Of a stretch of DNA of 57,087 bases, positions 9,012 to 52,966 are shown in pieces. Below the pieces are notes generated by a model that saw only the letters and a list, made by a program, of their open reading frames with translations, did not search any database and had not been told where the DNA came from. The stretch comes from a virus. Lineage: Duplodnaviria > Heunggongvirae > Uroviricota > Caudoviricetes. Position 1 is the stretch's first letter. Each line of letters begins with the position of its first letter. The stretch covers positions 1 to 57,087 of IMG/VR virus record IMGVR_UViG_2561511241_000005; one strand, given 5' to 3'. Position numbers and translations under genes: made by a program.

Positions 9012-9659
9012 ATGAAAACAAAATGGTATGACTTAGCAAAGCAGCTTATGCGTGCGCAAGGCATGAGCCAGGATTCATTGGCGGATCTCATGGGGATCAC
9101 GAAAGGCGGCTTATCACACTGGCTGAATGGTCGCCGTGAGCCAAATCTTGAAGACATTGCGCGGATTATGCGGGCGCTTGGTCGTCGGCAATTCACTGTT
9201 ACACACGATGGAATGGTCATAGATGATTCTGTTTCTAACACGTTACCGGGCGCGCCACCGCGTGATTTAGGCAGTTACCCGGTTGTTGACTGGAAGGACG
9301 CAGTAAACAATATGGAAGATACAAGGCGATCAACATTACCACACGTTACAACTAGCGTTATTTGTTCAGATGATAGTTATTGGCTGGTAGCTAAAGGCGA
9401 ATCAATGAACGCGCCGCAAGGATTGAGTATACCAGCTGGGACGATGATACTTGTCGATCCGCACGCGCCAGCTATTGACGGAAAACTGGTTATAGCCCAA
9501 CTGGAGGAAGGGCAAACGCCTACGTTTAAACAGCTTGTTATTGATGGAGGTCAAAGGCTTTTACGTTCGCTCAATCCGCTGTATCCGCCAATCCCTATGA
9601 ATCCAGAATCTAAAATCATAGGTGTGGTAGTGGACGCGAAGATCGTAAACCTGCCATAA
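9012..9659 (+). CDS. CI-like repressor (HTH-XRE N-domain, S24 LexA-like peptidase C-domain)
   Basis: 215 aa; HTH near N-terminus; GESM (Ser) and TFKQL (Lys) self-cleavage dyad motifs. Confidence 0.85.
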   Translation: MKTKWYDLAKQLMRAQGMSQDSLADLMGITKGGLSHWLNGRREPNLEDIARIMRALGRRQFTVTHDGMVIDDSVSNTLPGAPPRDLGSYPVVDWKDAVNNMEDTRRSTLPHVTTSVICSDDSYWLVAKGESMNAPQGLSIPAGTMILVDPHAPAIDGKLVIAQLEEGQTPTFKQLVIDGGQRLLRSLNPLYPPIPMNPESKIIGVVVDAKIVNLP

Positions 9660-9690: not shown

Positions 9691-9783
9691 CCCGTAAAAT
9701 CACCAAAACGTAAACCAAAAACGGTTTTTATCATTTAAATATCAATGATATAGAAAATATTTTAAAAAAGTATACAAAATGGA

Positions 9784-9812
9784 TTGACTCGGTATATCAC
9801 AGGGCGTATATT
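9784..9812 (+). promoter_or_regulatory. PL-like sigma70 promoter
   Basis: TTGACT - 17 bp - TATATT; recurrent GTATACAAAATGG motif immediately upstream. Confidence 0.45.
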
Positions 9813-10066
9813 GCGAATCAAAGGAAGGAGGCAGGAAACAAAAAGCGCCTTCCTGGCACTTTAAAAATCAGGCTTAACACCTTGTCAACCGTGGAGTAAC
9901 TCCCCCGATGGGGGACCGAAAGCGGCACTGATAACAAGGCGCATGGGGTGTATAAAGCGTCACATCCCCCACGAAACCGCACGCAAGGCGACGAGTCAGC
10001 TTGCTTGGAGTGAGCAGGGTCACACCGGAAACGGCGATGATTGCGGGATTAGTTGAAAGATGTTAA

Positions 10067-17413: not shown

Positions 17414-17435
17414 AGTTTACAAAATGGCGTCATTG

Positions 17436-17451
17436 TGTGATGAATGTCACA
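17436..17451. promoter_or_regulatory. Perfect TGTGA-N6-TCACA palindrome (CRP-consensus-like site)
   Basis: tgtgatgaatgtcaca in intergenic region between methylase-like gene and NinF-like ORF. Confidence 0.3.
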
Positions 17452-17572
17452 TAATGGCGCTTTACACCTTGTTAGCACGTATCCATTTTGTATACTTCAA
17501 GCAAACAAAATGCTCTTTAAAAATCCGGCAGCGCTGAAATGCGTAGAAATCACCTGAAAAGGAGAGAGCATT

Positions 17573-25719: not shown

Positions 25720-25920
25720 ATGTTCGACAGAATACGGGAGGCGTGCGCGTATGTGACTGGGGCCGTAACTGCTTTTTTCGGCGCGATAACCATCAATGAT
25801 ATTGCCGTCTTTGTGGGTATCTTATCAACCATAGGCACATTTGCCGTTAACTATTACTTCAAATCACAGGAGAACAAGCGAGCGCAAGAGGAACACGACG
25901 CGCGAATGGGGAATAAGTAA
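25720..25920 (+). CDS. Class II holin (pinholin-like, two TM domains)
   Basis: 66 aa; two hydrophobic helices then charged C-terminus; GGAGG RBS; directly upstream of SAR endolysin. Confidence 0.7.
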
Positions 25921-25921
25921 C

Positions 25922-26413
25922 ATGATTAGCCAATCGCTGAAGAATAAGATTATTGCTGCGGCGGCTGGTGGGGCGATCGCTATTGCGGCGGTGATGGTTA
26001 AACCATTAGAGGGCGTGGAGTACGATCCCTATCGTGATGTTATCGGCGTATGGACAGTTTGCTATGGTCACACCGGAAAAGACATCATGCTTGGTAAGAC
26101 TTACACGCAATCAGAATGCGATGCTTTGTTAAACAAGGATCTCCACAAAACCGCAAAAGCGATTGACCCATATATTAAAGTCGAAATATCAGATTTTACC
26201 CGCGCGGCGCTTTATTCATTCGCCTATAACGTAGGCGCTACCAACTTCAAAACATCAACCTTATTGAAGCTACTCAATGACGGCAAGAAATCAGAGGCGT
26301 GCGCACAGCTTAAACGCTGGGTATACGCTGGCGGTAAGAAGTGGCAAGGCCTGGTTAACCGCCGTGATGTTGAATATGCCGTTTGCGAATGGGGTGAAAC
26401 ATGGACAAGGTGA
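25922..26413 (+). CDS. SAR endolysin (T4-lysozyme-type muramidase with N-terminal signal-arrest-release domain)
   Basis: ATG 25922; N-terminal Gly/Ala-rich weakly hydrophobic helix [17 protein letters not shown]; E-x8-D-x5-T catalytic pattern [22 protein letters not shown]. Confidence 0.85.
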
Positions 26414-26871
26414 AGACGGTAATTATCGCCGCTATCGTTTGTGTCGTTGTTGGGCTTGTTGCCGCGCTTAGTCACTGCCAGTCAGTGATAAACACAATGC
26501 AAAGCGAGCTAACTACTACACAGGGCGCACTAAAAACAGCAAGTAACACTATTCAGCAGATGAAGGAGCGAAACGCCGAACTGTCAAAACTTGATAAGAG
26601 GTATCACGATGAAATTAAAGCTATCAGATCTGACATTGCTGATCTGCGTGCTGGTATTGATAGCGGTGCTATCCGGTTGCACGTCAACGCAATACCCGTG
26701 CGAGTGTCAGACGCCACCGGAACCGCCAGCAGCATTGATGGAGCCGCCTGTAGACTCACTCCCGACGCTGAATCGGCTTATCTATCCCTCAGAGAACAAC
26801 TAAAAGAGAAAGACGCGAAGATCACCGGATTGCAGGACTACATCAAGACGCAGTGCATACGCAAAGAATAA
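26401..26871 (+). CDS. Rz-like inner-membrane spanin
   Basis: 156 aa; N-terminal TM helix then coiled-coil periplasmic domain; overlaps endolysin end. Confidence 0.75.
26609..26803 (+). CDS. Rz1-like outer-membrane lipoprotein spanin embedded in Rz
   Basis: ATG 26609 with AGAGG RBS; lipobox LSGC; proline-rich mature region; alternate frame inside Rz. Confidence 0.75.
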   Translation: MKLKLSDLTLLICVLVLIAVLSGCTSTQYPCECQTPPEPPAALMEPPVDSLPTLNRLIYPSENN

Positions 26872-36654: not shown

Positions 36655-37095
36655 ATGCCTATCAAGGGTGTTAAACGTGTCAGAGAACGATTAAAGCAGG
36701 AGCTAAAGGAAATTACAGATAAGAAAACTCATGAAGTGTTATGGCGTGTAGGGATGCTGGCTGGTGGCTTCGCGGCGAACATGACCCCAGTTGACACGGG
36801 TTTTTTAATTAACAGTCAATTTCAGTATATAGGAAACACGGCGGAGGGTATGCAGTTACGGCTTGGATATACTGCCCGGTATGCTGAATGGGTGCACAAT
36901 ATGCCAGGTAAATTAAAGGGACAGCCGCGCGAACATTTCGGCAAGACTAGCGAAGGGGTTGAATTCGGCGGCGGTACTGGAAAAGGTAAATATTGGGACC
37001 CAAACGCGGAGCCGGAATTCTTGCGCACAGCATTCGAAGATCCAAACAACGCCGACGATATTTATAAAGAGATTGTAGAAGGTTACAAAACATGA
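36655..37095 (+). CDS. HK97 gp10-like tail component
   Basis: 146 aa; N-terminus MPIKGVKRVRERLKQ typical of HK97 gp10 family. Confidence 0.5.
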   Translation: MPIKGVKRVRERLKQELKEITDKKTHEVLWRVGMLAGGFAANMTPVDTGFLINSQFQYIGNTAEGMQLRLGYTARYAEWVHNMPGKLKGQPREHFGKTSEGVEFGGGTGKGKYWDPNAEPEFLRTAFEDPNNADDIYKEIVEGYKT

Positions 37096-37478
37096 AACGC
37101 AGCGAAGTATACGACGAAATAAGGGATTGGATTAAATCCCACGGGTACGATAAAGGCTATATTTTGCAAGCCCGTTTCTGGAATGAAAAATCCAATTCGA
37201 ATAACGACCGATACATTGTCATTCAGCAAAACGGCGGCGCGGCTGGTGAGGAAGCAATAACCCGTGATTATTTCCGCATCCTGGTTATTTCGGCGCGTAA
37301 TGACGCAAATATCAGTGAAGTGGAAGACCTTGCCGACGCCATCCGTCAAAGTATGTTAACAGAATATAAAACTGATAAAATTACACACATGAAGCCAGTA
37401 GGCGCTATTCCTGCAATGCAGACAAGAGAAGGGCGCTTTATTTTTACCGTAGCTTTTCAAACCATCATATCTAGATAA
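37092..37478 (+). CDS. Putative tail completion / terminator protein
   Basis: 128 aa, position before major tail protein. Confidence 0.45.
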   Translation: MKRSEVYDEIRDWIKSHGYDKGYILQARFWNEKSNSNNDRYIVIQQNGGAAGEEAITRDYFRILVISARNDANISEVEDLADAIRQSMLTEYKTDKITHMKPVGAIPAMQTREGRFIFTVAFQTIISR

Positions 37479-37490
37479 GAGGTAACAAAC

Positions 37491-37967
37491 ATGTCTCAGA
37501 CTTGCGAAAAGGGATCGTTTTTGGGCCGCGACGTGGCTGTATTCTACGCTATCGCTTGTCCTAACGCTAAGCCGTTAGATGACGCTTACAAAGCGTTAGG
37601 AATGATGCGCGGTAAAACGCTTTCCGTCGAATGGGAAACCGCAGACGCCACCGCTGATAAATCAGCAGACTACACGAAAGAATCAATGGTTACTTACAAA
37701 TCCGTTTCTTTCTCCGGCGATGGTGTATCCCGTACTGAAGAAATTCACAACCAGAAGGCATTGAAACGTCACACCATTAACCCTGGCGAAACCACTGGCA
37801 ATCAACCATATGTATGGCTGAAAATTGTTTCTCCGGTTGACGTAACTGAAGGACCATTTCTTTGCACATCCTTTAAAGAAGAAGATCCGCACGATGATGT
37901 CTCAACCTGGTCTATTGAGTGTTCAAGCGCTGGCCAGGTAACGGTAGATGACATCCCGGCAGCATAA
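37491..37967 (+). CDS. Major tail protein
   Basis: 158 aa; followed by strong terminator; position. Confidence 0.6.
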   Translation: MSQTCEKGSFLGRDVAVFYAIACPNAKPLDDAYKALGMMRGKTLSVEWETADATADKSADYTKESMVTYKSVSFSGDGVSRTEEIHNQKALKRHTINPGETTGNQPYVWLKIVSPVDVTEGPFLCTSFKEEDPHDDVSTWSIECSSAGQVTVDDIPAA

Positions 37968-37983
37968 TAATCAATATTAATAA

Positions 37984-38005
37984 TCGGGGCCGTTGGCCCC
38001 TTTCT
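37984..38005 (+). terminator. Rho-independent terminator after major tail gene
   Basis: GGGGCC-gtt-GGCCCC hairpin followed by T-rich run. Confidence 0.55.
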
Positions 38006-38020
38006 TTTAGGGTGAAAGCT

Positions 38021-38701
38021 ATGATTCATGTTCGAACTGGACAATTTGCGGCTGTAGTCGATGGCAGGCGGTATGTATTTAATCCCTGTTTCGCCGCAAT
38101 GGCTAAGATCGGCAGTGACAGAGAACTGGTAGAATACTTCGCAACCATCCACGGTGGCAAATATCCATCACGATTGCCAGCAGATCCAGACCTACGCAAT
38201 CGCATTCTGGCGCGGTGTTATGGTGAGATAGTGCAAACGTCTATGCGCATCCTGAAATGTTGCTCAGAAGAGGAAACAGGGCCATTGCTTGGCGAATGCT
38301 GGTTTACTCCTTCTGGCAAGTTACGACTAAAACCCGGATTGATGCCTACTGATGACGTCATCACGCTTGCGCAGCATTGCATGTACCACGGTTTAATCGG
38401 TGATGGACCGGAAGAATACGCTGGAGAGATCCGGGAAGGTGAATATAAGCCGACATTTGACGTCCTTGAATTCGTTTATTCTGCCGTCGCTCACCTGGGA
38501 TTATCTGAATCAGAAGCATGGAATATGACAATGACCGGATATAGGGCCGCTGTGCGCGCTAAAACGCCGCCAGACGAAAGAAACGAGAGAAGCAAGCCAA
38601 ATGTTCACATAAATAAACGTGCTTATGATGAGCAAATGGAGGCCGCTAAAAAGGCACTGGAAAGAATGAAAAATCGCAAGCAAGAAAAAGCCCGGAATTA
38701 A
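38021..38701 (+). CDS. Putative tail assembly chaperone
   Basis: ATG 38021 with AGGGTGA RBS; position between major tail and tape-measure genes. Confidence 0.4.
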   Translation: MIHVRTGQFAAVVDGRRYVFNPCFAAMAKIGSDRELVEYFATIHGGKYPSRLPADPDLRNRILARCYGEIVQTSMRILKCCSEEETGPLLGECWFTPSGKLRLKPGLMPTDDVITLAQHCMYHGLIGDGPEEYAGEIREGEYKPTFDVLEFVYSAVAHLGLSESEAWNMTMTGYRAAVRAKTPPDERNERSKPNVHINKRAYDEQMEAAKKALERMKNRKQEKARN

Positions 38702-38715
38702 CCGGGCCTTTATTT

Positions 38716-39018
38716 TTATTTGTATGCTGCAAAGCGCCATCTTGCCTCTTCTAAATCATGGACTGTGTACACGTTATCGTAAAGATAAGTCGCGATCTGT
38801 GCTTTCTGTACGTCAGTTGCGTCAGAAAACTCCATGTTGACGAAAGTTAAAGCATCTATGTAGTGTTTAAACATCTTCTTGTTGACGCATAGGGCGTAAA
38901 TCAATACAGCAGGCCAACAAATCAGAGCGCCAATAAATGCAAGGAACATATTAAGATGTTTTTTCTCGGCTACAACCATAGTTACCACAAATCCAATAAA
39001 GAGAATTACTAGTTCCAT
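38716..39018 (-). CDS. membrane protein (opposite-strand cassette 1)
   Basis: 100 aa; two N-terminal TM helices; AAGGCGG RBS. Confidence 0.5.
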   Translation of the reverse strand: MELVILFIGFVVTMVVAEKKHLNMFLAFIGALICWPAVLIYALCVNKKMFKHYIDALTFVNMEFSDATDVQKAQIATYLYDNVYTVHDLEEARWRFAAYK

Positions 39019-39029
39019 GATGCACCGCC

Positions 39030-39137
39030 TTATTTACATTCGCCTTTTATTGTTAATGCCAGCACGAATACAGCCATTACATTAAAAGCCACCCATGCTG
39101 ATATATACACTTCTATGATGCTTTTGATGGTATCCAT
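39030..39137 (-). CDS. micro-ORF, 35-aa TM peptide (cassette 1)
   Basis: MDTIKSIIEVYISAWVAFNVMAVFVLALTIKGECK; GAGG RBS. Confidence 0.3.
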   Translation of the reverse strand: MDTIKSIIEVYISAWVAFNVMAVFVLALTIKGECK

Positions 39138-39148
39138 GTGCGCCTCGC

Positions 39149-39238
39149 TTAATTTTTGTTTTTAAGTGCTTTTAACATTTCTTCGATGAAGTCCGCATAG
39201 CGTTCATGTTCGTTGGGACGGTAGTTTACGTTTTTCAT
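39149..39238 (-). CDS. micro-ORF, 29-aa peptide (cassette 1)
   Basis: MKNVNYRPNEHERYADFIEEMLKALKNKN; AGAGGA RBS. Confidence 0.3.
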   Translation of the reverse strand: MKNVNYRPNEHERYADFIEEMLKALKNKN

Positions 39239-39487
39239 TTTCTTATCCTCTTTTGCTTCCTCCGGTTAATCCGGCCTTTTAAATCCCTTTGCTGTTTCCT
39301 TAGTTTTAGGGGTTTTCGCCTCCCTCGTTCCATCGGTTAGCTGTGCTTCAAGTCTTAATCCTTTATATCCTTCGACCTTCTTTTATCTCTCTCATCCTTC
39401 ACCTTCTTTATACAAAATGTATTCGTTGAAATGAAGCCATTTTGTATAAAATAGAGACATAGATCACATTTTGTATGAGGTTAAATC

Positions 39488-41827
39488 ATGGCTACCAGTG
39501 TAGGTACAATTTATTACGAGGTTGATGCAAAAACTGGTCAACTTCTCGTTGCACAACGACAGGCAGACCAGGCCTTTGACCGTATAGAGCGCGGCGCAAA
39601 ACAGGCTGACCGCCAGGTAAACACCCTGAAAACATCCATCAAAGCACTGACCAGGGTCATCCATCTGCTACTTGCTGCGGAAGCAGTGCGCCAATTTATG
39701 GATATGGCGGAACAAGCAAAAATGCTACGCGTAAAAATCAAAATGCTTACTGGCGATGCGGAGTCCGCCGGACGGGTTTTCGACGGCCTGAAAGCAATAT
39801 CGAAAGAAACAGGCCAGAGCCTGAAAGATACTGGCGAATTATGGCAAGGACTTGCCATCTCATTAAAAAACACATCCGCTACTGAAGGCCAGTTACTTAA
39901 CCTTGTTGGCACTATTCAGAAAATGGGGGCGTTAGGTGGTGCATCAGCGGAACAGATGTCTAACTCAATGCGCCAGTTCCGCCAGGCTATCGACGGCGGC
40001 GTACTCCGTGCTGAAGAATTCAACAGCCTTCTTGAGAACACCCCGACCATCGTACAGACAATGGCCCGCCAGATGGGATTATCAATGGGCCAGTTCCGCG
40101 CAGAAATGCTGGACGGCAAGATCACGGCTGAAAGGATGGTCAACGCGATCCAGGCGGCTACGCAGGAAACAAACGATAAGTTTGCTCAGTTGCCGCGCAC
40201 ATCCGGTACGGCTATCAATGAGCTTAAAGTAGAGATCATGGGCCTTGTTGAGCAGTTGGACGATCTTTTCGGCGTATCAGACGGCGTGGTATCAGCTATC
40301 GACTTAATCACGAAGGGCGTTAAAGGACTTGGCGAGGGCGCTAAATTCGCTAAAACATGCTTTGACACTCTCAAAACGGCTGGGAGTGAATTCATCGACA
40401 TGTTTGACGACGTTGCTGTTAAAGCTGGTGAGGTGGCGGAAGAGATCATTAGAATGGTAACGCCAATAAAAGCGCTAATGGATGGCTACAAATGGATGAA
40501 GGAAATTGTCGATAAACGCAAGGAAGAGCTAAACAGTAACAACGAGAAAAAATTCGGCCCTACCGTCGGCAAGGTCATGACGTTTGCAAACGATATTAAA
40601 AACGCGACTGCCGCTTATGATGAGTTCATGCAGAAACAGGGTGAGGCTAACGACGGCAAGATCACCGGATTCGATCAGCCAGTTGATAAGCCGAAAAAAC
40701 CGAAAAAAGAGAAGAAATCAGAAGCTGATCGGCTTGGTGACAAAGGCATAAGCGTTTCTGACCAGTACAACAAAGACGCCGCCGCCATGCGCAAAGCATT
40801 AGAGAACGGCAAGGCCATTGATGCTGCATTCGCCCAGGGTAAAATCACACTCCTTGAATACCGCGCCGCGCAAAAAGGGATCGGCAAAGAACTGAAGGAA
40901 GAATTAGCGCAAATCCCTGTAGATGAATTGCGTGATAAATGGTCGCAAATAGTTAGCCCGATGGACCAGCTAAAAGGCGAGGTTGACCCTATTCAGCAGG
41001 TACAGAATGAATGGGCCATTCGTAAGCAAATGCTTATCGACCTGGGGGCTACCGAAGCGCAACAGAAACAGGAATTGTTAGCCTATGAGCAACAGATCCG
41101 CGATCTGAAGTGGGAGCAGTGGCAAGCGCAAAGCGACACTAACGGCCTGATCGGTGATTGCGTTAATGGCCTTAAAGGTGGTATGAGCAATGCACTTGTT
41201 GGCCTGTTAAACGGTACTCAATCATTGAGCGATGTTTTTGCTAACTTAGGTAGCAATATCCTCGGCAATATTGGTAGCAGACTTTCAGATATAGCCGCTG
41301 ACTGGATAGCAGATCAAATCATGATGGAGACACAAAGCAAGGCCACGCAAGCAAGTACAACGGCGGGCGCGGTAGCGGCGCAAGGCCAGATTGCTGCGGC
41401 GGCGGCCCCGGCGGCGGCGGCAACAGCGGCGTCAACTGGCGGCGCATGGGCTGCGGCTGGTTCTGCGGCACTAACTGCGATCATGTCGCTGGCTACGTCA
41501 ATTTTCGGCGGTGGTCGCTTTAATGGTGGTAGCGTTATTGGTGGCAATATGTACCGCGTAGGGGAACATAACAGGCCGGAGCTATTCCAGACATCTAACG
41601 GAAATCAATATATGATCCCAGGCGAGAATGGCAGGGTTATTCCTGGGCGTGATATTGGCGGTGGCGTCGGCATTAGTATGCCTGTCAATATCAACATTCA
41701 GACCACAAACGGATTTAGCGACGAAGACAGTCGCAGACTTGAACAAACAATGGAACGTGTAGCAATGAAAATGATAACAAGGGAATCACAAAGACCAGGC
41801 GGAATATTGCAACCGCGCCGCAAATAA
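39488..41827 (+). CDS. Tail tape measure protein
   Basis: 779 aa; long alpha-helical protein with Gly/Ala-rich segment; position. Confidence 0.85.
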   Translation: MATSVGTIYYEVDAKTGQLLVAQRQADQAFDRIERGAKQADRQVNTLKTSIKALTRVIHLLLAAEAVRQFMDMAEQAKMLRVKIKMLTGDAESAGRVFDGLKAISKETGQSLKDTGELWQGLAISLKNTSATEGQLLNLVGTIQKMGALGGASAEQMSNSMRQFRQAIDGGVLRAEEFNSLLENTPTIVQTMARQMGLSMGQFRAEMLDGKITAERMVNAIQAATQETNDKFAQLPRTSGTAINELKVEIMGLVEQLDDLFGVSDGVVSAIDLITKGVKGLGEGAKFAKTCFDTLKTAGSEFIDMFDDVAVKAGEVAEEIIRMVTPIKALMDGYKWMKEIVDKRKEELNSNNEKKFGPTVGKVMTFANDIKNATAAYDEFMQKQGEANDGKITGFDQPVDKPKKPKKEKKSEADRLGDKGISVSDQYNKDAAAMRKALENGKAIDAAFAQGKITLLEYRAAQKGIGKELKEELAQIPVDELRDKWSQIVSPMDQLKGEVDPIQQVQNEWAIRKQMLIDLGATEAQQKQELLAYEQQIRDLKWEQWQAQSDTNGLIGDCVNGLKGGMSNALVGLLNGTQSLSDVFANLGSNILGNIGSRLSDIAADWIADQIMMETQSKATQASTTAGAVAAQGQIAAAAAPAAAATAASTGGAWAAAGSAALTAIMSLATSIFGGGRFNGGSVIGGNMYRVGEHNRPELFQTSNGNQYMIPGENGRVIPGRDIGGGVGISMPVNINIQTTNGFSDEDSRRLEQTMERVAMKMITRESQRPGGILQPRRK

Positions 41828-41858
41828 ACAAAGCCCCGGCATTGTGCCGGGGTTATCT
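41828..41858. terminator. Bidirectional rho-independent terminator
   Basis: CCCCGGCA-ttgt-GCCGGGG hairpin with T-rich flanks on both strands. Confidence 0.55.
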
Positions 41859-41859
41859 T

Positions 41860-42039
41860 TTATTCAATTTCATCATTTTTAAATTCGCCGTTTACATAAA
41901 GCTGTAATGCATTTATTAGTTCTGCGGCTTGCTTTTTATCTATTACGATCAATTCGCAGTCGCACTCAAGCCATAATCTTTCGTCATACTCAATGCTAAG
42001 AGTAATACGTCTGCATTCTTCCGTTTCGTTAATAATCAT
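41860..42039 (-). CDS. hypothetical acidic protein (cassette 2)
   Basis: ATG 42037-42039 with GGAG RBS; 59 aa. Confidence 0.45.
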   Translation of the reverse strand: MIINETEECRRITLSIEYDERLWLECDCELIVIDKKQAAELINALQLYVNGEFKNDEIE

Positions 42040-42077
42040 TATCAATCTCCACTGTGCTATTAATCACATAAATAAAT

Positions 42078-42248
42078 TTACTCAAAACTTGTATATCCTC
42101 TTTCAATTTTCCCGCCTCTTACACTTCTTGCAAATACTGCGTCAGTATGCTTGAAAAATGGTTCAGTATATGTGTCTCCTTTGCTATCCATCCATTTTAC
42201 GATCCAGGCCATACGTTTTACATTGCTTTTATTTGCCGGGTTTTTCAT
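42078..42248 (-). CDS. small hypothetical protein (cassette 2)
   Basis: about 56 aa; GGAGG RBS; hand-translated. Confidence 0.35.
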   Translation of the reverse strand: MKNPANKSNVKRMAWIVKWMDSKGDTYTEPFFKHTDAVFARSVRGGKIERGYTSFE

Positions 42249-42266
42249 TTTATTTTCCTCCGCAAA

Positions 42267-42359
42267 TTACAATCTTCCGTTTCTTGCTATGTAGCTGCGA
42301 GCAAACATCACTTGCCAGATGTTCCAGATCTCACGCCAGGTGAATTTATCGTCATTCAT
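42267..42359 (-). CDS. micro-ORF, 30 aa (cassette 2)
   Basis: MNDDKFTWREIWNIWQVMFARSYIARNGRL; GAGG RBS. Confidence 0.25.
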   Translation of the reverse strand: MNDDKFTWREIWNIWQVMFARSYIARNGRL

Positions 42360-42366
42360 ACCTACC

Positions 42367-42621
42367 TCACTTATGCGCACCTTTGACGCCGCAGTGCCTG
42401 TTATATTCAAGATGATCGATGATTAACCATACCTTGAGGTCTTCACTGAACAGCCGCCAATCAGGGTTGATGTCAAATTTAAAACCGTATCCGTCGCGTA
42501 ACTTTTTGGGGTGGGCTTCTTTCTTCAAAAATGCTTTAAGAAGTTCCTTGCCTTTCTTGATGATCCGGTCATGTGCGTTTTTCTGTGCTTTCAGGTTTTT
42601 GTCAATCGCTACCAGTTTCAT
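42367..42621 (-). CDS. hypothetical basic protein (cassette 2)
   Basis: 84 aa; AAGGGGGA RBS. Confidence 0.5.
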   Translation of the reverse strand: MKLVAIDKNLKAQKNAHDRIIKKGKELLKAFLKKEAHPKKLRDGYGFKFDINPDWRLFSEDLKVWLIIDHLEYNRHCGVKGAHK

Positions 42622-42788
42622 AACATCCCCCTTTGTGCAACGTCTTTCTTATTTGCTTTCTGTATACAATATGTGATTGCCAAAGTGAAGCCATTTTGAA
42701 AACTGGCTATAATCATTGTGATGAGGATCTCATTTTTCGCGTAGAATCGCGTAAAGGTATATACAAAATGTAACTTATAGGGGGATTT

Positions 42789-43142
42789 ATGCCTGAAGTG
42801 TTCCGATGGACACCACAAAGAAGCTACAGCGTAAACAGTGAGCCTAACGTGTCTGTCATTAAACTGGGTGATGGGTATGAACAGCGCCAGACAAAAGGGA
42901 TTAACCCTTTACTTGATAGCTATACGCTGGTCTTTAAAGGTACGAGCGCAGGATGCGGTGACGCCGGAAACGTAGCGCTACAGGTTGACGCATTTTTAAG
43001 AGCACGTTGCGCGGTCGAGGCGTTTTACTGGACCCCATCCACTGACGGGGTGCAAAGGCTTTTTGTATGCAGAAAGTGGAGCATGACGAAAGACGGCCCG
43101 GTATGCACTCTTAATGCAACGTTTGAACAAGTCGTCAATTAA
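42789..43142 (+). CDS. Minor tail protein M (lambda gpM-like)
   Basis: 117 aa; FRW near N-terminus, GDGY...Q motif and C-terminal FEQVVN as in lambda M. Confidence 0.8.
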   Translation: MPEVFRWTPQRSYSVNSEPNVSVIKLGDGYEQRQTKGINPLLDSYTLVFKGTSAGCGDAGNVALQVDAFLRARCAVEAFYWTPSTDGVQRLFVCRKWSMTKDGPVCTLNATFEQVVN

Positions 43143-51939: not shown

Positions 51940-52571
51940 TGGCAACTTTTGGCGCTTATCTGCTTTTAAGTAACGGCAATGTATTTGTCACGCCCGACGC
52001 TACGCCTATGTGCCTTTACACAAGACAGCAAATATCTTGTCCATCAACGCAAAACACATCAAAATACATTACAGTCCCAACAAATAAGCCTGTAATGGTA
52101 TTTGTAAAGACAAGTATAGGCGGTGTTACAGCAAGCGTTAGCAGGGCTAACTCTGGACAAATACTTTGCGCTTTTGGTAGAGATGTCAACAATACCTATA
52201 CTGCAACTGTATATGTATTTTCTATTTTTTCTCCCCCCCTCCCCAAATGGGGTATGGCTATATGGAATTCATCGGGTGAGCTTGTTTTGACAAATGAATC
52301 AAGAATATTAACTGACATCATCACGGTGGGTTCTCCGGGTAATGGAGGCGGGATAAATATAGATCAGACACTTTCAGGATCATACGCAATTTGCCCGCAA
52401 TTGTTGGGCGCGGTTGTTGGGCAAGGTTCAGCATCGATTTATGCTGCCGCATACTATAACGGCAGCAAAACAAGGATCTATGGTGTTACGGCTGGTGGCG
52501 TATATAATCCTACTGGCTACATAAACCACGGTAACGCCATAACCGCCATTAAAACCGATGCCTATGATTAA
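51939..52571 (+). CDS. hypothetical protein with two copies of the MATFG domain and internal T6/C7/C4 homopolymer tracts
   Basis: 210 aa; MATFGAYLLLSNGN... and internal ...WGMAIWNSSGEL...; poly-C at 52231-52244. Confidence 0.5.
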   Translation: MATFGAYLLLSNGNVFVTPDATPMCLYTRQQISCPSTQNTSKYITVPTNKPVMVFVKTSIGGVTASVSRANSGQILCAFGRDVNNTYTATVYVFSIFSPPLPKWGMAIWNSSGELVLTNESRILTDIITVGSPGNGGGINIDQTLSGSYAICPQLLGAVVGQGSASIYAAAYYNGSKTRIYGVTAGGVYNPTGYINHGNAITAIKTDAYD

Positions 52572-52807
52572 TTCAGTTCCGGGCAATCCGTTTTATTGAA
52601 GTGGTCAACGCTTACCCATTGGAAGTTAAACGGATACCCGGCCTTAACCATTTTATGACCGCCAACATCCGCGACACCGAAGACTGCAACCGCATACTCA
52701 TTACCGCCAGTTTGATAAGTTGCCATGCATTCACGTTTCGGCATATCAGCGCAACCAACCAGACCAGCGACCATTGCAGCGATAGCGATATTTTTAAAGC
52801 CTTTCAT
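52568..52807 (-). CDS. Small lipoprotein (possible Cor-like superinfection exclusion protein)
   Basis: ATG 52805-52807 with GGAGGG RBS; signal peptide MKGFKNIAIAAMVAGLVGC with lipobox; opposite strand between J and tail fibre. Confidence 0.55.
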   Translation of the reverse strand: MKGFKNIAIAAMVAGLVGCADMPKRECMATYQTGGNEYAVAVFGVADVGGHKMVKAGYPFNFQWVSVDHFNKTDCPELN

Positions 52808-52966
52808 TGTCTTACCCTCCATTGTTAAGTTGGTTGTAGTATCCATAAACAGCTTTTTAACAACATTGACATAAATCAATAAATACATTTTGTGCGCGTC
52901 AAAAATGTAACATAGATCACAAAATGGTAGAATTATTCCGTTAATTAACATAATGGAGTCATTGCG

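What the first reader, a model, noticed from the sequence alone, without database searches (positions are those of the whole stretch)
38716..39238. Opposite-strand three-gene cassette (membrane protein plus two micro-ORFs) inserted between the tail chaperone and tape-measure genes
Lambda-like tail clusters are normally a single co-directional block. Here a minus-strand cassette (29-aa peptide 39149-39238, 35-aa TM peptide 39030-39137, 100-aa two-TM protein 38716-39018), each with its own RBS, sits where a chaperone frameshift partner would be expected. Its upstream side is the motif-rich divergent region 39407-39480. Membrane proteins at such moron positions are candidates for superinfection exclusion or abortive-infection functions.
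Basis: partly seen in the sequence, partly recalled or inferred. Interest (0 to 1): 0.6.

Follow-up and report, generated by a model that had tools for sequence, protein, structure and literature searches.

The report
Reverse-strand membrane-protein moron before tape measure
Three small genes really do sit backwards between two tail genes of an E. coli prophage, in a slot where related phages swap cell-envelope proteins, and they most likely protect the host cell from other phages, as a known gene at the same position in phage HK97 does, but their function is untested.

Summary
The three minus-strand ORFs exist at the stated coordinates and all are under purifying selection: pN/pS is 0.19 (100 aa), 0.31 (35 aa) and 0.10 (29 aa).

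The window is a complete mEpimmI-type E. coli prophage, running from int to abgT. The cassette lies between the DUF6246 gene and the tape-measure gene.
- In 17 distant DUF6246 phages these two genes abut, so the cassette is an insertion.
- It is AT-rich (39% GC against 48-50% in the flanks).
- It ends at a bidirectional terminator.
- It starts from a strongly conserved promoter/operator module.

In all 56 close relatives examined the slot carries reverse-strand genes. The contents are swapped between phages and are mostly envelope proteins. The cassette splits into two parts:
- **29-aa gene:** a soluble micro-protein that is resident in the unit (38 of 56 loci, and the only gene in one).
- **35-aa + 100-aa pair:** an always-linked membrane-protein module (14 of 56 loci) with no homologue outside this phage group and no family or fold match.

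The closest precedent is the HK97 gp15 moron, a superinfection-exclusion protein at the same junction, but there is no sequence similarity. The function and timing of expression remain inferred. I rate it a new member of a known kind, of moderate interest.

The parts
38021..38701 (+). Left flank: DUF6246 protein gene (226 aa from the ATG). By position it is the tail-assembly-chaperone-like gene. It is not part of the cassette.
   Evidence: Pfam PF19759, E=3e-53. PGAP names it 'DUF6246 family protein' in relatives. No slippery heptamer and no long alternative frame.
38686..38711 (.). Bidirectional intrinsic terminator. It overlaps the DUF6246 stop codon, ends the reverse operon, and also reads as a terminator on the + strand.
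   Evidence: Terminator scan finds it on both strands. The hairpin AAAAAGCCCGG-N5/6-CCGGGC is conserved in all relatives whatever the cargo.
38716..39018 (-). Cargo gene 2: 100-aa protein with two N-terminal transmembrane helices and a helical C-terminal domain of about 55 aa.
   Evidence: ORF. pN/pS 0.19. Hydropathy. AF2 model is all-alpha, pLDDT 74.5. Only 8 clusters in 5.8 billion proteins and 3 representatives in 1.8 billion. No Pfam, PHROG, PADLOC or NCBIfam hit.
39030..39137 (-). Cargo gene 1: 35-aa single-pass membrane peptide, always found with the 100-aa gene.
   Evidence: ORF. pN/pS 0.31. Hydropathy. Found in all 14 loci that carry the 100-aa gene. Tandemly duplicated in L019.
39149..39238 (-). 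Resident first gene of the reverse unit: 29-aa hydrophilic micro-protein, MKNVNYRPNEHERYADFIEEMLKALKNKN.
   Evidence: pN/pS 0.10, with variable columns 5/4/19 by codon position. Present in 38 of 56 clade loci in 16 peptide variants, upstream of unrelated cargoes. It is the only gene in the slot in L015. tblastn against 50,697 phage genomes finds it only in mEpimmI phages.
39239..39400 (-). Predicted 5' leader of about 160 nt, purine-rich on the transcribed strand. It contains a conserved small hairpin CCGG-ATTAA-CCGG (39262-39274) and a 92-nt insertion (about 39303-39394) absent from most relatives.
   Evidence: Alignment A2. The insertion variant is also seen in L020 and L015. No match in complete E. 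coli genomes. No Rfam match near any gathering score.
39407..39468 (-). Conserved promoter/operator module. The candidate sigma-70 promoter has -35 TTCATT (39430-39435), a 17-nt spacer and -10 TATAAA (39407-39412). The -35 hexamer lies between the arms of the inverted repeat TATACAAAATG / CATTTTGTATA (39438-39448 and 39409-39419), whose downstream arm overlaps the -10. An invariant TGTGAT lies at 39463-39468, and a less-conserved third motif copy just beyond the module at 39466-39476.
   Evidence: Among 29 distinct versions from 49 loci, the repeat arms and TGTGAT are invariant while the -35 region varies. The same module precedes the 122-aa homologue at a different junction in L015 and, in diverged form, the second reverse cassette at about 42660-42700. 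The strict consensus scan did not call it a promoter.
39488..41827 (+). Right flank: tape-measure protein gene (779 aa), transcribed divergently from the cassette. It is not part of the cassette.
   Evidence: Pfam TMP_3, E=3e-50.

Best explanation
This is a self-contained accessory operon (a moron) that runs against the late tail operon of an mEpimmI-type E. coli prophage. It occupies a cargo-exchange hotspot between the DUF6246 gene and the tape-measure gene.

**Anatomy (inferred from sequence)**
- Transcription starts at a conserved promoter/operator module (39407-39468).
- It runs leftwards through a leader of about 160 nt and the three genes.
- It stops at the bidirectional terminator overlapping the DUF6246 stop codon (38686-38711).

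**Two parts with different histories**
- The 29-aa soluble micro-protein is the resident gene of the unit.
- The 35-aa single-pass peptide and the 100-aa two-pass protein are an obligately linked inner-membrane pair, inserted as cargo behind it.

**Most likely role (inferred, not shown)**
The membrane pair is made in the lysogen. There the silent late operon does not interfere with antisense transcription. The pair acts at the cytoplasmic membrane to block genome entry by superinfecting phages. This is the role shown for the unrelated inner-membrane protein gp15 of HK97, which sits at the same chaperone|tape-measure junction.

**What is shown and what is inferred**
- Shown: the genes are real, the locus is an insertion hotspot with its own terminator and a conserved upstream module, and the cargo in relatives is mostly envelope proteins.
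- Inferred: promoter activity, expression in the lysogen, membrane topology and the exclusion phenotype.

My confidence that this is a real moron operon in a hotspot is about 0.9. My confidence in exclusion or defence as its function is about 0.4.
For: **Real genes**
- All three frames are under purifying selection.
- PGAP calls the 100-aa gene on the minus strand in three E. coli genomes.

**An insertion**
- 17 distant DUF6246 phages have a gap of -4 to 77 nt between DUF6246 and the tape-measure gene.
- GC content is 39% against 48-50% in the flanks.

**A transcription unit**
- A bidirectional terminator closes it.
- The upstream module has invariant blocks across 29 distinct versions.
- The same module travels with a 122-aa homologue at the tail-tube|DUF6246 junction in L015, again on the opposite strand.

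**A hotspot for envelope proteins**
- All 56 clade loci carry minus-strand cargo.
- Cargo types include signal-peptide proteins, a VasI/TagO-like lipoprotein (Pfam E=2e-16), BamE-like lipoproteins, and the 35+100 pair in 14 of 56 loci.
- Seven more distant phages carry co-directional cargo at the same junction, mostly lipoprotein or signal-peptide proteins.

**Precedents**
- HK97 gp15 is a 62-aa inner-membrane exclusion protein encoded between the GT chaperone gene and the tape-measure gene (PMC3594210).
- phi80 tai is a reverse-oriented immunity gene that interrupts the late operon; its authors model it as being switched off by late transcription (PMC11364771).

**Shared upstream sequence with an exclusion gene**
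- A Cor-type exclusion lipoprotein gene elsewhere in the same tail region (52568-52807, minus strand; NF047972, E=9e-15) shares TGTGATCTATGT and ACAAAATG elements upstream.
Against: - There are no expression data. The strict sigma-70 scan did not call the promoter, and its -35 hexamer is weak and variable.
- The dyad motif of the module also lies next to the -35 of the early promoter just downstream of the CI-like repressor gene (9772). The unit could therefore be under lytic-cycle control rather than expressed in the lysogen.
- There is no sequence or fold similarity to any exclusion or defence protein:
  - HK97 gp15 gives no alignment.
  - PADLOC, Pfam, PHROGs and NCBIfam give nothing significant.
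  - Foldseek against BFVD and the PDB gives nothing at E<=0.001.
- The phage already carries a Cor-type exclusion gene.
- The positional analogy is weak evidence for function.
Confidence: 0.45

Rival explanations
1. The cassette is lysogenic conversion unrelated to phages. The membrane pair, and the periplasmic or lipoprotein cargoes in relatives, would protect or adapt the host envelope against something else. Examples are immunity to pore-forming bacteriocins or T6SS effectors, or tolerance of stress.
For: - The alternative cargo in the same slot includes a VasI/TagO-like T6SS-associated lipoprotein (Pfam PF11319, E=2e-16; PGAP name) and BamE-like lipoproteins.
- From general knowledge, not tested here: small two- to four-pass inner-membrane proteins are the typical form of colicin immunity proteins.
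- Moron products with host-fitness roles are well documented (PMC3594210).
Against: - No Pfam or NCBIfam match to any immunity family.
- The family is confined to one phage group and always lies in the tail region.
- No toxin or effector gene lies next to it.
Confidence: 0.2
2. The cassette is an abortive-infection or toxic small-membrane-protein module. The 35-aa hydrophobic peptide would be a membrane-damaging effector held in check by, or acting with, the 100-aa protein. It would collapse the membrane potential when a second phage infects.
For: - The 35-aa peptide has the size and hydrophobic profile of type I toxins and small holin-like peptides.
- The strict 35+100 linkage (14 of 14 loci) fits a two-component effector/regulator design.
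- The tandem duplication in L019 shows that gene dosage can vary.
Against: - No similarity to known toxin, holin or Abi families.
- No antisense or antitoxin feature is evident.
- The peptide is translated as an ordinary gene in an operon with a good ribosome-binding site.
- The exact 35-aa sequence is carried stably on 45 public contigs.
Confidence: 0.15
3. The cassette has a lytic-cycle function. It would be switched on by a phage regulator early or late in infection, for example to stop re-injection into infected cells, tune lysis timing or assist the inner-membrane step of the phage's own cycle. It would not be a prophage-expressed gene.
For: - The ACAAAATG motif of its promoter module is enriched across the genome (21 occurrences against 2.4 expected).
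- The motif sits at operon boundaries of the early region, including directly upstream of the -35 of the strong promoter after the repressor gene (TTGACT-17-TATATT at 9785-9813).
- The weak, variable -35 hexamer suggests dependence on an activator.
Against: - The orientation against the late operon and the insulating bidirectional terminator are typical of prophage-expressed genes (PMC11364771, PMC3594210).
- The cargo is non-core and is swapped for unrelated proteins.
- The lysis cassette lies elsewhere: endolysin at 25841-26413 and an Rz-like spanin at 26401-26871.
Confidence: 0.15
4. The micro-ORFs are not genes. Only the 100-aa ORF would be real, and the 35-aa and 29-aa frames would be chance frames in a leader. 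Alternatively, the plus-strand ORFs annotated in GenBank for mEp554, mEp044 and mEp515 would be the real genes.
For: - PHANOTATE-based GenBank records annotate plus-strand ORFs over this region.
- PGAP does not annotate the 29-aa or 35-aa frames.
Against: - Both micro-ORFs show third-position-dominated variation and low pN/pS.
- The 29-aa peptide keeps its sequence while synonymous sites approach saturation.
- The wobble positions of the 29-aa frame fall on codon position 1 of the overlapping plus-strand ORF (my own calculation from the coordinates).
- The plus-strand ORFs are not open in the window and are broken by the indel in the leader.
Confidence: 0.03

Closest known systems
HK97 gp15 moron (superinfection exclusion; YebO-like)
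   Same: - It sits at the same place in a siphophage tail operon, between the tail assembly chaperone gene and the tape-measure gene (PMC3594210).
- It is a small protein with an N-terminal membrane helix and a helical tail.
- It has its own terminator.
- It is extra DNA compared with relatives.
   Different: - No detectable sequence similarity and no YebO Pfam hit.
- gp15 is a single 62-aa gene co-directional with the tail genes. Here there are three genes on the opposite strand, two membrane proteins that always occur together, and a conserved 29-aa first gene.
- The exclusion phenotype is shown for gp15 and untested here.
Cor / Lpp exclusion lipoproteins of lambdoid and mEpimmI phages
   Same: - Both are reverse-strand accessory genes in the tail region of the same phage group.
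- Lpp021 and Lpp010 were shown to exclude mEpimmI phages (PMC11893012).
- The window's own cor-like gene (52568-52807) shares upstream sequence elements with this cassette.
   Different: - None of the three products has a signal peptide or a lipobox.
- They are predicted to be inner-membrane or soluble proteins, not outer-membrane-directed lipoproteins.
- They lie in a different slot.
- The mEpimmI paper does not discuss this slot.
phi80 tai (reverse-oriented immunity gene interrupting the late operon; 'noncontiguous operon')
   Same: An accessory gene is placed divergently inside the late operon. The phi80 authors' model is that late transcription switches it off during lytic growth (PMC11364771).
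   Different: - It lies in a different genomic location, upstream of the packaging module.
- It is a soluble protein that blocks tail assembly.
- No homology was found.
T4 Imm / P22 SieA type inner-membrane injection blockers
   Same: They are small inner-membrane proteins that stop DNA entry. This similarity comes from general knowledge and is only a lead.
   Different: No family match (Pfam, PHROGs). They occur in a different genomic context.

Membership tests
Moron (Juhala/Hendrix sense) | Extra DNA between two genes that are adjacent in related phages | tested here: met
   17 distant DUF6246 phages have DUF6246 and the tape-measure gene -4 to 77 nt apart. The window has 786 nt between them.
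Moron (Juhala/Hendrix sense) | Base composition different from the neighbouring genes | tested here: met
   The cassette is 39.0% GC, against 47.7% for DUF6246 and 50.0% for the tape-measure gene.
Moron (Juhala/Hendrix sense) | Own transcription terminator | tested here: met
   A bidirectional hairpin plus T-run at 38686-38711, conserved in relatives.
Moron (Juhala/Hendrix sense) | Own promoter | tested here: inconclusive
   A conserved TTCAYT-17-TATAAA element with flanking invariant dyad arms is present. The strict consensus scan did not call it, and there are no transcript data.
Moron (Juhala/Hendrix sense) | Expressed from the repressed prophage | not testable with these tools
   This needs RNA-seq or reporter data from a lysogen.
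HK97 gp15 / YebO family | Sequence homology to gp15/YebO | tested here: not met
   BLASTP finds no alignment for the 100-aa or the 35-aa protein against gp15. There is no YebO Pfam hit.
HK97 gp15 / YebO family | Location between the chaperone gene and the tape-measure gene | tested here: met
HK97 gp15 / YebO family | Blocks genome entry of superinfecting phage | not testable with these tools
   This needs plating and DNA-entry assays.
Cor / Lpp exclusion lipoprotein | Signal peptide with a lipobox, and a match to the Cor model | tested here: not met
   None of the three products has a lipobox (sequences), and none hits NF047972. A separate gene at 52568-52807 does (E=9e-15).
Tail assembly chaperone G/GT frameshift pair | A slippery heptamer and an overlapping -1 frame that extends the chaperone towards the tape-measure gene | tested here: not met
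   DUF6246 has no in-frame X XXY YYZ heptamer, and its longest alternative frame is 43 codons. The DNA after the stop codon is a terminator followed by reverse-strand genes.
Known anti-phage defence systems (PADLOC) | Match to a PADLOC model | tested here: not met
   No family at E<=0.1 for any of the three proteins or for six alternative cargo proteins.
Holin / type I toxin families | Match to a Pfam or PHROG holin or toxin family | tested here: not met
   No significant hits. The phage's lysis genes lie at about 25.8-26.9 kb.

The most novel reading that the evidence does not exclude
The locus may be a portable, phage-regulated expression platform rather than a simple moron.

The platform would consist of:
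- a conserved dyad operator (TATACAAAATG / CATTTTGTATA) plus an invariant TGTGAT element;
- a conserved 29-aa micro-protein gene;
- a bidirectional terminator.

Unrelated envelope-protein genes would be slotted in and exchanged behind the micro-protein gene. The promoter/operator module and a bidirectional terminator recur at a second junction of the tail operon in this window (the cassette at 41860-42621). The promoter/operator module also recurs at a third junction in relatives (tail tube|DUF6246 in L015). Both lack the 29-aa gene.

The two enriched motifs are ACAAAATG (21 occurrences against 2.4 expected) and the CRP-like TGTGA-N6-TCACA (8 against 1.6). Under this reading they tie these accessory units to the phage's own repressor or regulator circuit, or to cAMP-CRP. 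The 29-aa peptide would have a function of its own.
Probability: 0.25. Interest if true: 0.6.

Novelty: new member of a known kind. Interest (0 to 1): 0.42.

Why it matters
mEpimmI phages are reported to be as common as lambdoid phages among temperate coliphages from human faeces (PMC11893012). Their published description does not cover this slot.

If the 35+100 pair is an exclusion or defence module, it would add an unrelated inner-membrane system to the few that are known. It would also give a second, independent case of an envelope-acting moron next to the tape-measure gene. That would support the idea that this junction is a favoured place for genes that act on DNA entry.

The 29-aa gene is a strongly conserved micro-protein. 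PGAP leaves it unannotated in the RefSeq E. coli genomes examined here, and public records that do call it label it only 'hypothetical'.

The conserved promoter/operator module gives a concrete handle on how such accessory units are regulated.

Tried and rejected
**Homology searches for the 100-aa protein**
- The word-indexed search found 8 clusters, all at least 68% identical.
- The full HMMER profile search of 1.8 billion representatives found 3 hits, all in the same phage group.
- No distant family was reached.

**Family libraries**
- Pfam, PHROGs, PADLOC and NCBIfam gave nothing significant for any of the three proteins.

**Structure**
- The AF2 model of the 100-aa protein has pLDDT 74.5.
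- Foldseek against BFVD and the PDB gave nothing at E<=0.001.
- The afdb50 library was not available.

**RNA families**
- Rfam on 38600-39600 gave only sub-threshold chance hits.

**Direct comparison with HK97 gp15**
- No similarity.

**The 92-nt leader insertion**
- It has no match in complete E. coli genomes, so it is not a known repeat element.
- The 32-aa basic ORF inside it (39235-39333) lacks a start codon in L020, so I rejected it as a gene.

**Other rejected ORFs**
- The 22-24-aa ORF in the promoter region (39392-39460) is conserved only where the DNA motif is, and changes freely in the spacer.
- The plus-strand ORFs annotated in the mEp GenBank records are not open in the window, and their codon phase is wrong for the observed variation.

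**Rejected hypotheses**
- Frameshift partner of the chaperone.
- Lysis module, because the endolysin and spanin genes lie elsewhere.

**Not attempted**
- Association between cargo type and tape-measure or J protein type. Physical linkage would confound it.
Full report
**1. What is in the sequence**

Each is preceded by a purine-rich ribosome-binding stretch.

A hydropathy scan gives two transmembrane segments at the N-terminus of the 100-aa protein, one in the 35-aa peptide and none in the 29-aa peptide.

The left neighbour is a DUF6246 protein (38021-38701, +; Pfam E=3e-53). The right neighbour is a TMP_3 tape-measure protein (39488-41827, +).

The window as a whole is a complete prophage:
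- integrase at 1-1200;
- a CI-like HTH + S24 repressor at 9012-9659;
- the host abgT gene at 55642-57087.

It belongs to the recently described mEpimmI group of temperate E. coli siphophages, which includes mEp554, mEp044, mEp515, mEp010, mEp013, mEp021 and MagusPhagus (PMC11893012). The region 37000-41800 is identical to an NCBI assembly contig. The exact three proteins occur in many public E. coli assemblies, all labelled 'hypothetical'.

**2. Are they genes?**

Yes. I aligned orthologous copies from relatives at 80-85% nucleotide identity.

| ORF | Sequences | Variable columns by codon position | Pooled pN/pS |
|---|---|---|---|
| 100 aa | 6 | 21/10/43 | 0.19 |
| 35 aa | 6 | 10/4/17 | 0.31 |
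| 29 aa | 10 | 5/4/19 | 0.10 |

For the 29-aa frame, synonymous differences reach 0.5-0.9 per site while the peptide barely changes.

PHANOTATE-based GenBank records annotate plus-strand ORFs over this stretch. These are not open in the window. The wobble positions of the 29-aa frame fall on their first codon position, so they are mis-calls. PGAP annotates the 100-aa gene on the minus strand in E. coli 127, N1286 and E21845, but not the two micro-ORFs.

**3. It is an insertion in a hotspot**

I collected 76 loci encoding DUF6246 relatives from IMG/VR and added 12 loci from GenBank and RefSeq.

In phages whose DUF6246 is only 26-43% identical to the window's:
- The tape-measure gene follows directly in 17 loci, with a gap of -4 to 77 nt.
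- Seven others carry co-directional cargo there, mostly lipoprotein or signal-peptide genes.

In the mEpimmI clade (DUF6246 at least 71% identical), all 56 loci with a readable slot carry 640-1319 nt of minus-strand genes. The contents differ between phages:
- a family of secreted proteins of 116-165 aa, the most common cargo;
- a VasI/TagO-like lipoprotein (Pfam E=2e-16);
- BamE-like lipoproteins;
- a 106-aa soluble protein and a 60-aa soluble protein;
- a 59-aa membrane protein;
- the 35+100 pair, in 14 of 56 loci.

The cassette is AT-rich, at 39% GC against 48-50% in the flanks.

The conserved edges of the slot are as follows:
- **Left edge:** a bidirectional terminator hairpin that overlaps the last codons of DUF6246 (38686-38711).
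- **Right edge:** a promoter/operator module next to the tape-measure start codon.

**4. The cassette is two things, not one**

The 29-aa gene is the first gene of the reverse unit in 38 of 56 clade loci, whatever follows it. It occurs in 16 peptide variants. In the metagenomic locus L015 it is the only gene between the module and the terminator. It is therefore the resident gene of the unit, and the other genes have been added behind it. The remaining 18 loci have a shorter leader without it.

The 35-aa and 100-aa genes always occur together (14 of 14 loci). They sit either alone behind the 29-aa gene or behind an extra secreted or soluble protein. In L019 the 35-aa gene is tandemly duplicated.

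The 100-aa family is tiny:
- 8 clusters at 90% identity in 5.8 billion proteins;
- 3 representatives in a full HMMER profile search of 1.8 billion.

The only distant member is a 122-aa protein, P0009. It lies in L015 between the tail-tube gene and DUF6246. It is again on the opposite strand and is again preceded by the same promoter module. The association with the tail region and with this module is therefore conserved across the family.

**5. Regulation, as far as sequence shows**

Read on the minus strand, the module contains, in order:
- an invariant TGTGAT (39463-39468);
- the arm TATACAAAATG (39438-39448);
- a weak and variable -35 hexamer, TTCATT in the window and TTCACT or TTTACT elsewhere (39430-39435);
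- a 17-nt spacer;
- the arm CATTTTGTATA, which overlaps a -10 TATAAA (39407-39412).

Across 29 distinct versions the arms and TGTGAT never change, while the -35 region does. This points to a promoter that depends on, or is controlled by, a DNA-binding protein. The strict consensus scan did not call it a promoter, so promoter activity is an inference.

The 8-mer ACAAAATG occurs 21 times in the window against 2.4 expected. For the 11-mer, 11 of the 12 hits lie between genes. One sits directly upstream of the -35 of a strong promoter after the repressor gene. Others lie upstream of the second reverse cassette and of the cor-like gene.

A CRP-like dyad, TGTGA-N6-TCACA, is also enriched, at 8 hits against 1.6 expected. 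Its sites include:
- upstream of the repressor gene (8971);
- a perfect copy at 17436;
- upstream of the second cassette (42717);
- upstream of cor (52906).

The slot-1 copy keeps only the left half of this dyad. I cannot say which protein binds either motif. For that reason the timing of expression, in the lysogen or during lytic growth, is unresolved.

The opposite orientation and the insulating terminator favour expression in the lysogen. They match the reverse-gene-in-late-operon arrangement described for phi80 tai (PMC11364771).

**6. Function**

Nothing in the family libraries or fold libraries matches any of the three proteins:
- Pfam, PHROGs, PADLOC and NCBIfam;
- an AF2 model of the 100-aa protein (pLDDT 74.5, all-alpha);
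- Foldseek against BFVD and the PDB.

The best guide is context. The slot collects envelope proteins. The same phage group uses reverse-strand lipoproteins in the tail region for superinfection exclusion (PMC11893012; the window's own cor-like gene). The first moron ever described, HK97 gene 15, lies at the same chaperone|tape-measure junction. It encodes a small inner-membrane protein that blocks genome entry in a tail-dependent way (PMC3594210).

I therefore rank the possible roles as follows:
1. An inner-membrane block of DNA entry, confidence about 0.4.
2. A non-phage lysogenic-conversion role, such as bacteriocin or T6SS immunity.
3. An abortive-infection or toxic-peptide module.
4. A lytic-cycle role.

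The cassette is not the lysis module, because the endolysin and spanin genes lie at 25.8-26.9 kb. It is not a chaperone frameshift partner either, because DUF6246 has no slippery site and no overlapping frame.

**7. Comparison with known systems and verdict**

The cassette works like a moron. On the membership test it meets the insertion, composition and terminator criteria. The promoter criterion is inconclusive, and expression from the prophage is untestable here.

It is not a member of the gp15/YebO family, the Cor family or any PADLOC family, because homology was tested and not met.

I rate it a new member of a known kind. It is a real and conserved accessory operon with uncharacterised products, in a phage group whose published description does not cover this slot.

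Beyond the ordinary, two things stand out: the strongly conserved 29-aa resident micro-protein, and the conserved and reused promoter/operator module. Interest is moderate, at 0.42.

Noticed in passing
window 6280, 9772, 10453, 13863, 17419-17505, 23726, 39410-39476, 42664-42771, 52886-52919: ACAAAATG, the core of ATACAAAATGT/G, is strongly over-represented: 21 occurrences against 2.4 expected. The 11-mer gives 12 hits against 2.0 expected, and 11 of the 12 lie between genes at operon boundaries. In three places it lies 15-25 nt upstream of a start codon in the gene's orientation. At 9772 it abuts the -35 of a strong promoter after the repressor gene. It is probably the site of a phage regulator, but the binding protein is unknown.
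   Followed up: partly
window 8971, 10009, 13840, 17436, 42053, 42717, 44572, 52906: The CRP-like dyad TGTGA-N6-TCACA (at most 1 mismatch) occurs 8 times against 1.6 expected. Sites include a perfect copy at 17436, one just upstream of the CI-like repressor gene, and ones upstream of the second reverse cassette and of the cor-like gene. It could be a CRP site or the repressor's operator.
   Followed up: partly
window 41832-42790: A second reverse-strand cassette lies directly after the tape-measure gene and has the same architecture. It has a bidirectional terminator at 41832-41854 and a diverged copy of the promoter module at about 42660-42700. Four small minus-strand ORFs were read there: 41860-42045, 42078-42248, 42267-42410 and 42367-42621; the last two overlap, so at most one of them is likely to be real. 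The orthologue of the 84-aa protein in E. coli 127 (92% identical) is named 'ParE family toxin-like protein' by PGAP. Here it has no NCBIfam hit and matches only an unknown-function PHROG.
   Followed up: partly
window 52568-52807 (-): A third reverse-strand gene in the tail region encodes a 79-aa lipoprotein that matches the Cor phage-exclusion equivalog (NF047972, E=9e-15). It corresponds to the Lpp exclusion lipoproteins tested in the mEpimmI paper. Its upstream region shares TGTGATCTATGT and ACAAAATG elements with the cassette studied here.
   Followed up: partly
window about 39303-39394: A 92-nt purine-rich insertion lies in the leader of the reverse operon. It is absent from all 10 relatives aligned. 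Diverged copies occur in the IMG/VR locus L020 and the metagenomic locus L015. It has no match in complete E. coli genomes. The 32-aa basic ORF inside it is not conserved.
   Followed up: partly
L015 500-2100: In this metagenomic relative the DUF6246|tape-measure slot holds only the 29-aa gene. A 122-aa homologue of the 100-aa protein sits in a different junction (tail tube|DUF6246), on the opposite strand and behind the same promoter module. No 35-aa partner is visible there.
   Followed up: yes
L019 407-633: The 35-aa membrane-peptide gene is tandemly duplicated, as two identical copies, upstream of the 100-aa gene in a human-gut metagenome contig.
   Followed up: no
window 38021-38701: The DUF6246 gene occupies the tail-chaperone position. 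It has no -1 slippery heptamer and no overlapping frame, and its size (226 aa) is close to that of the fused GT product of HK97 (224 aa). This phage group may therefore make a single chaperone product without frameshifting.
   Followed up: partly
L001, L007, L008, L009 (GenBank PP180001-PP180005): The deposited annotations of the mEp phages call plus-strand ORFs across this slot. In mEp554 the minus-strand genes are missed altogether. PGAP annotations of E. coli prophages omit the 29-aa and 35-aa genes.
   Followed up: yes
window 37986-38000 and 38690-38707: Intrinsic terminators that read on the plus strand lie inside the tail operon, one after the tail-tube gene and one after DUF6246. Late transcription must therefore read through them, which implies antitermination of the late operon.
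   Followed up: no
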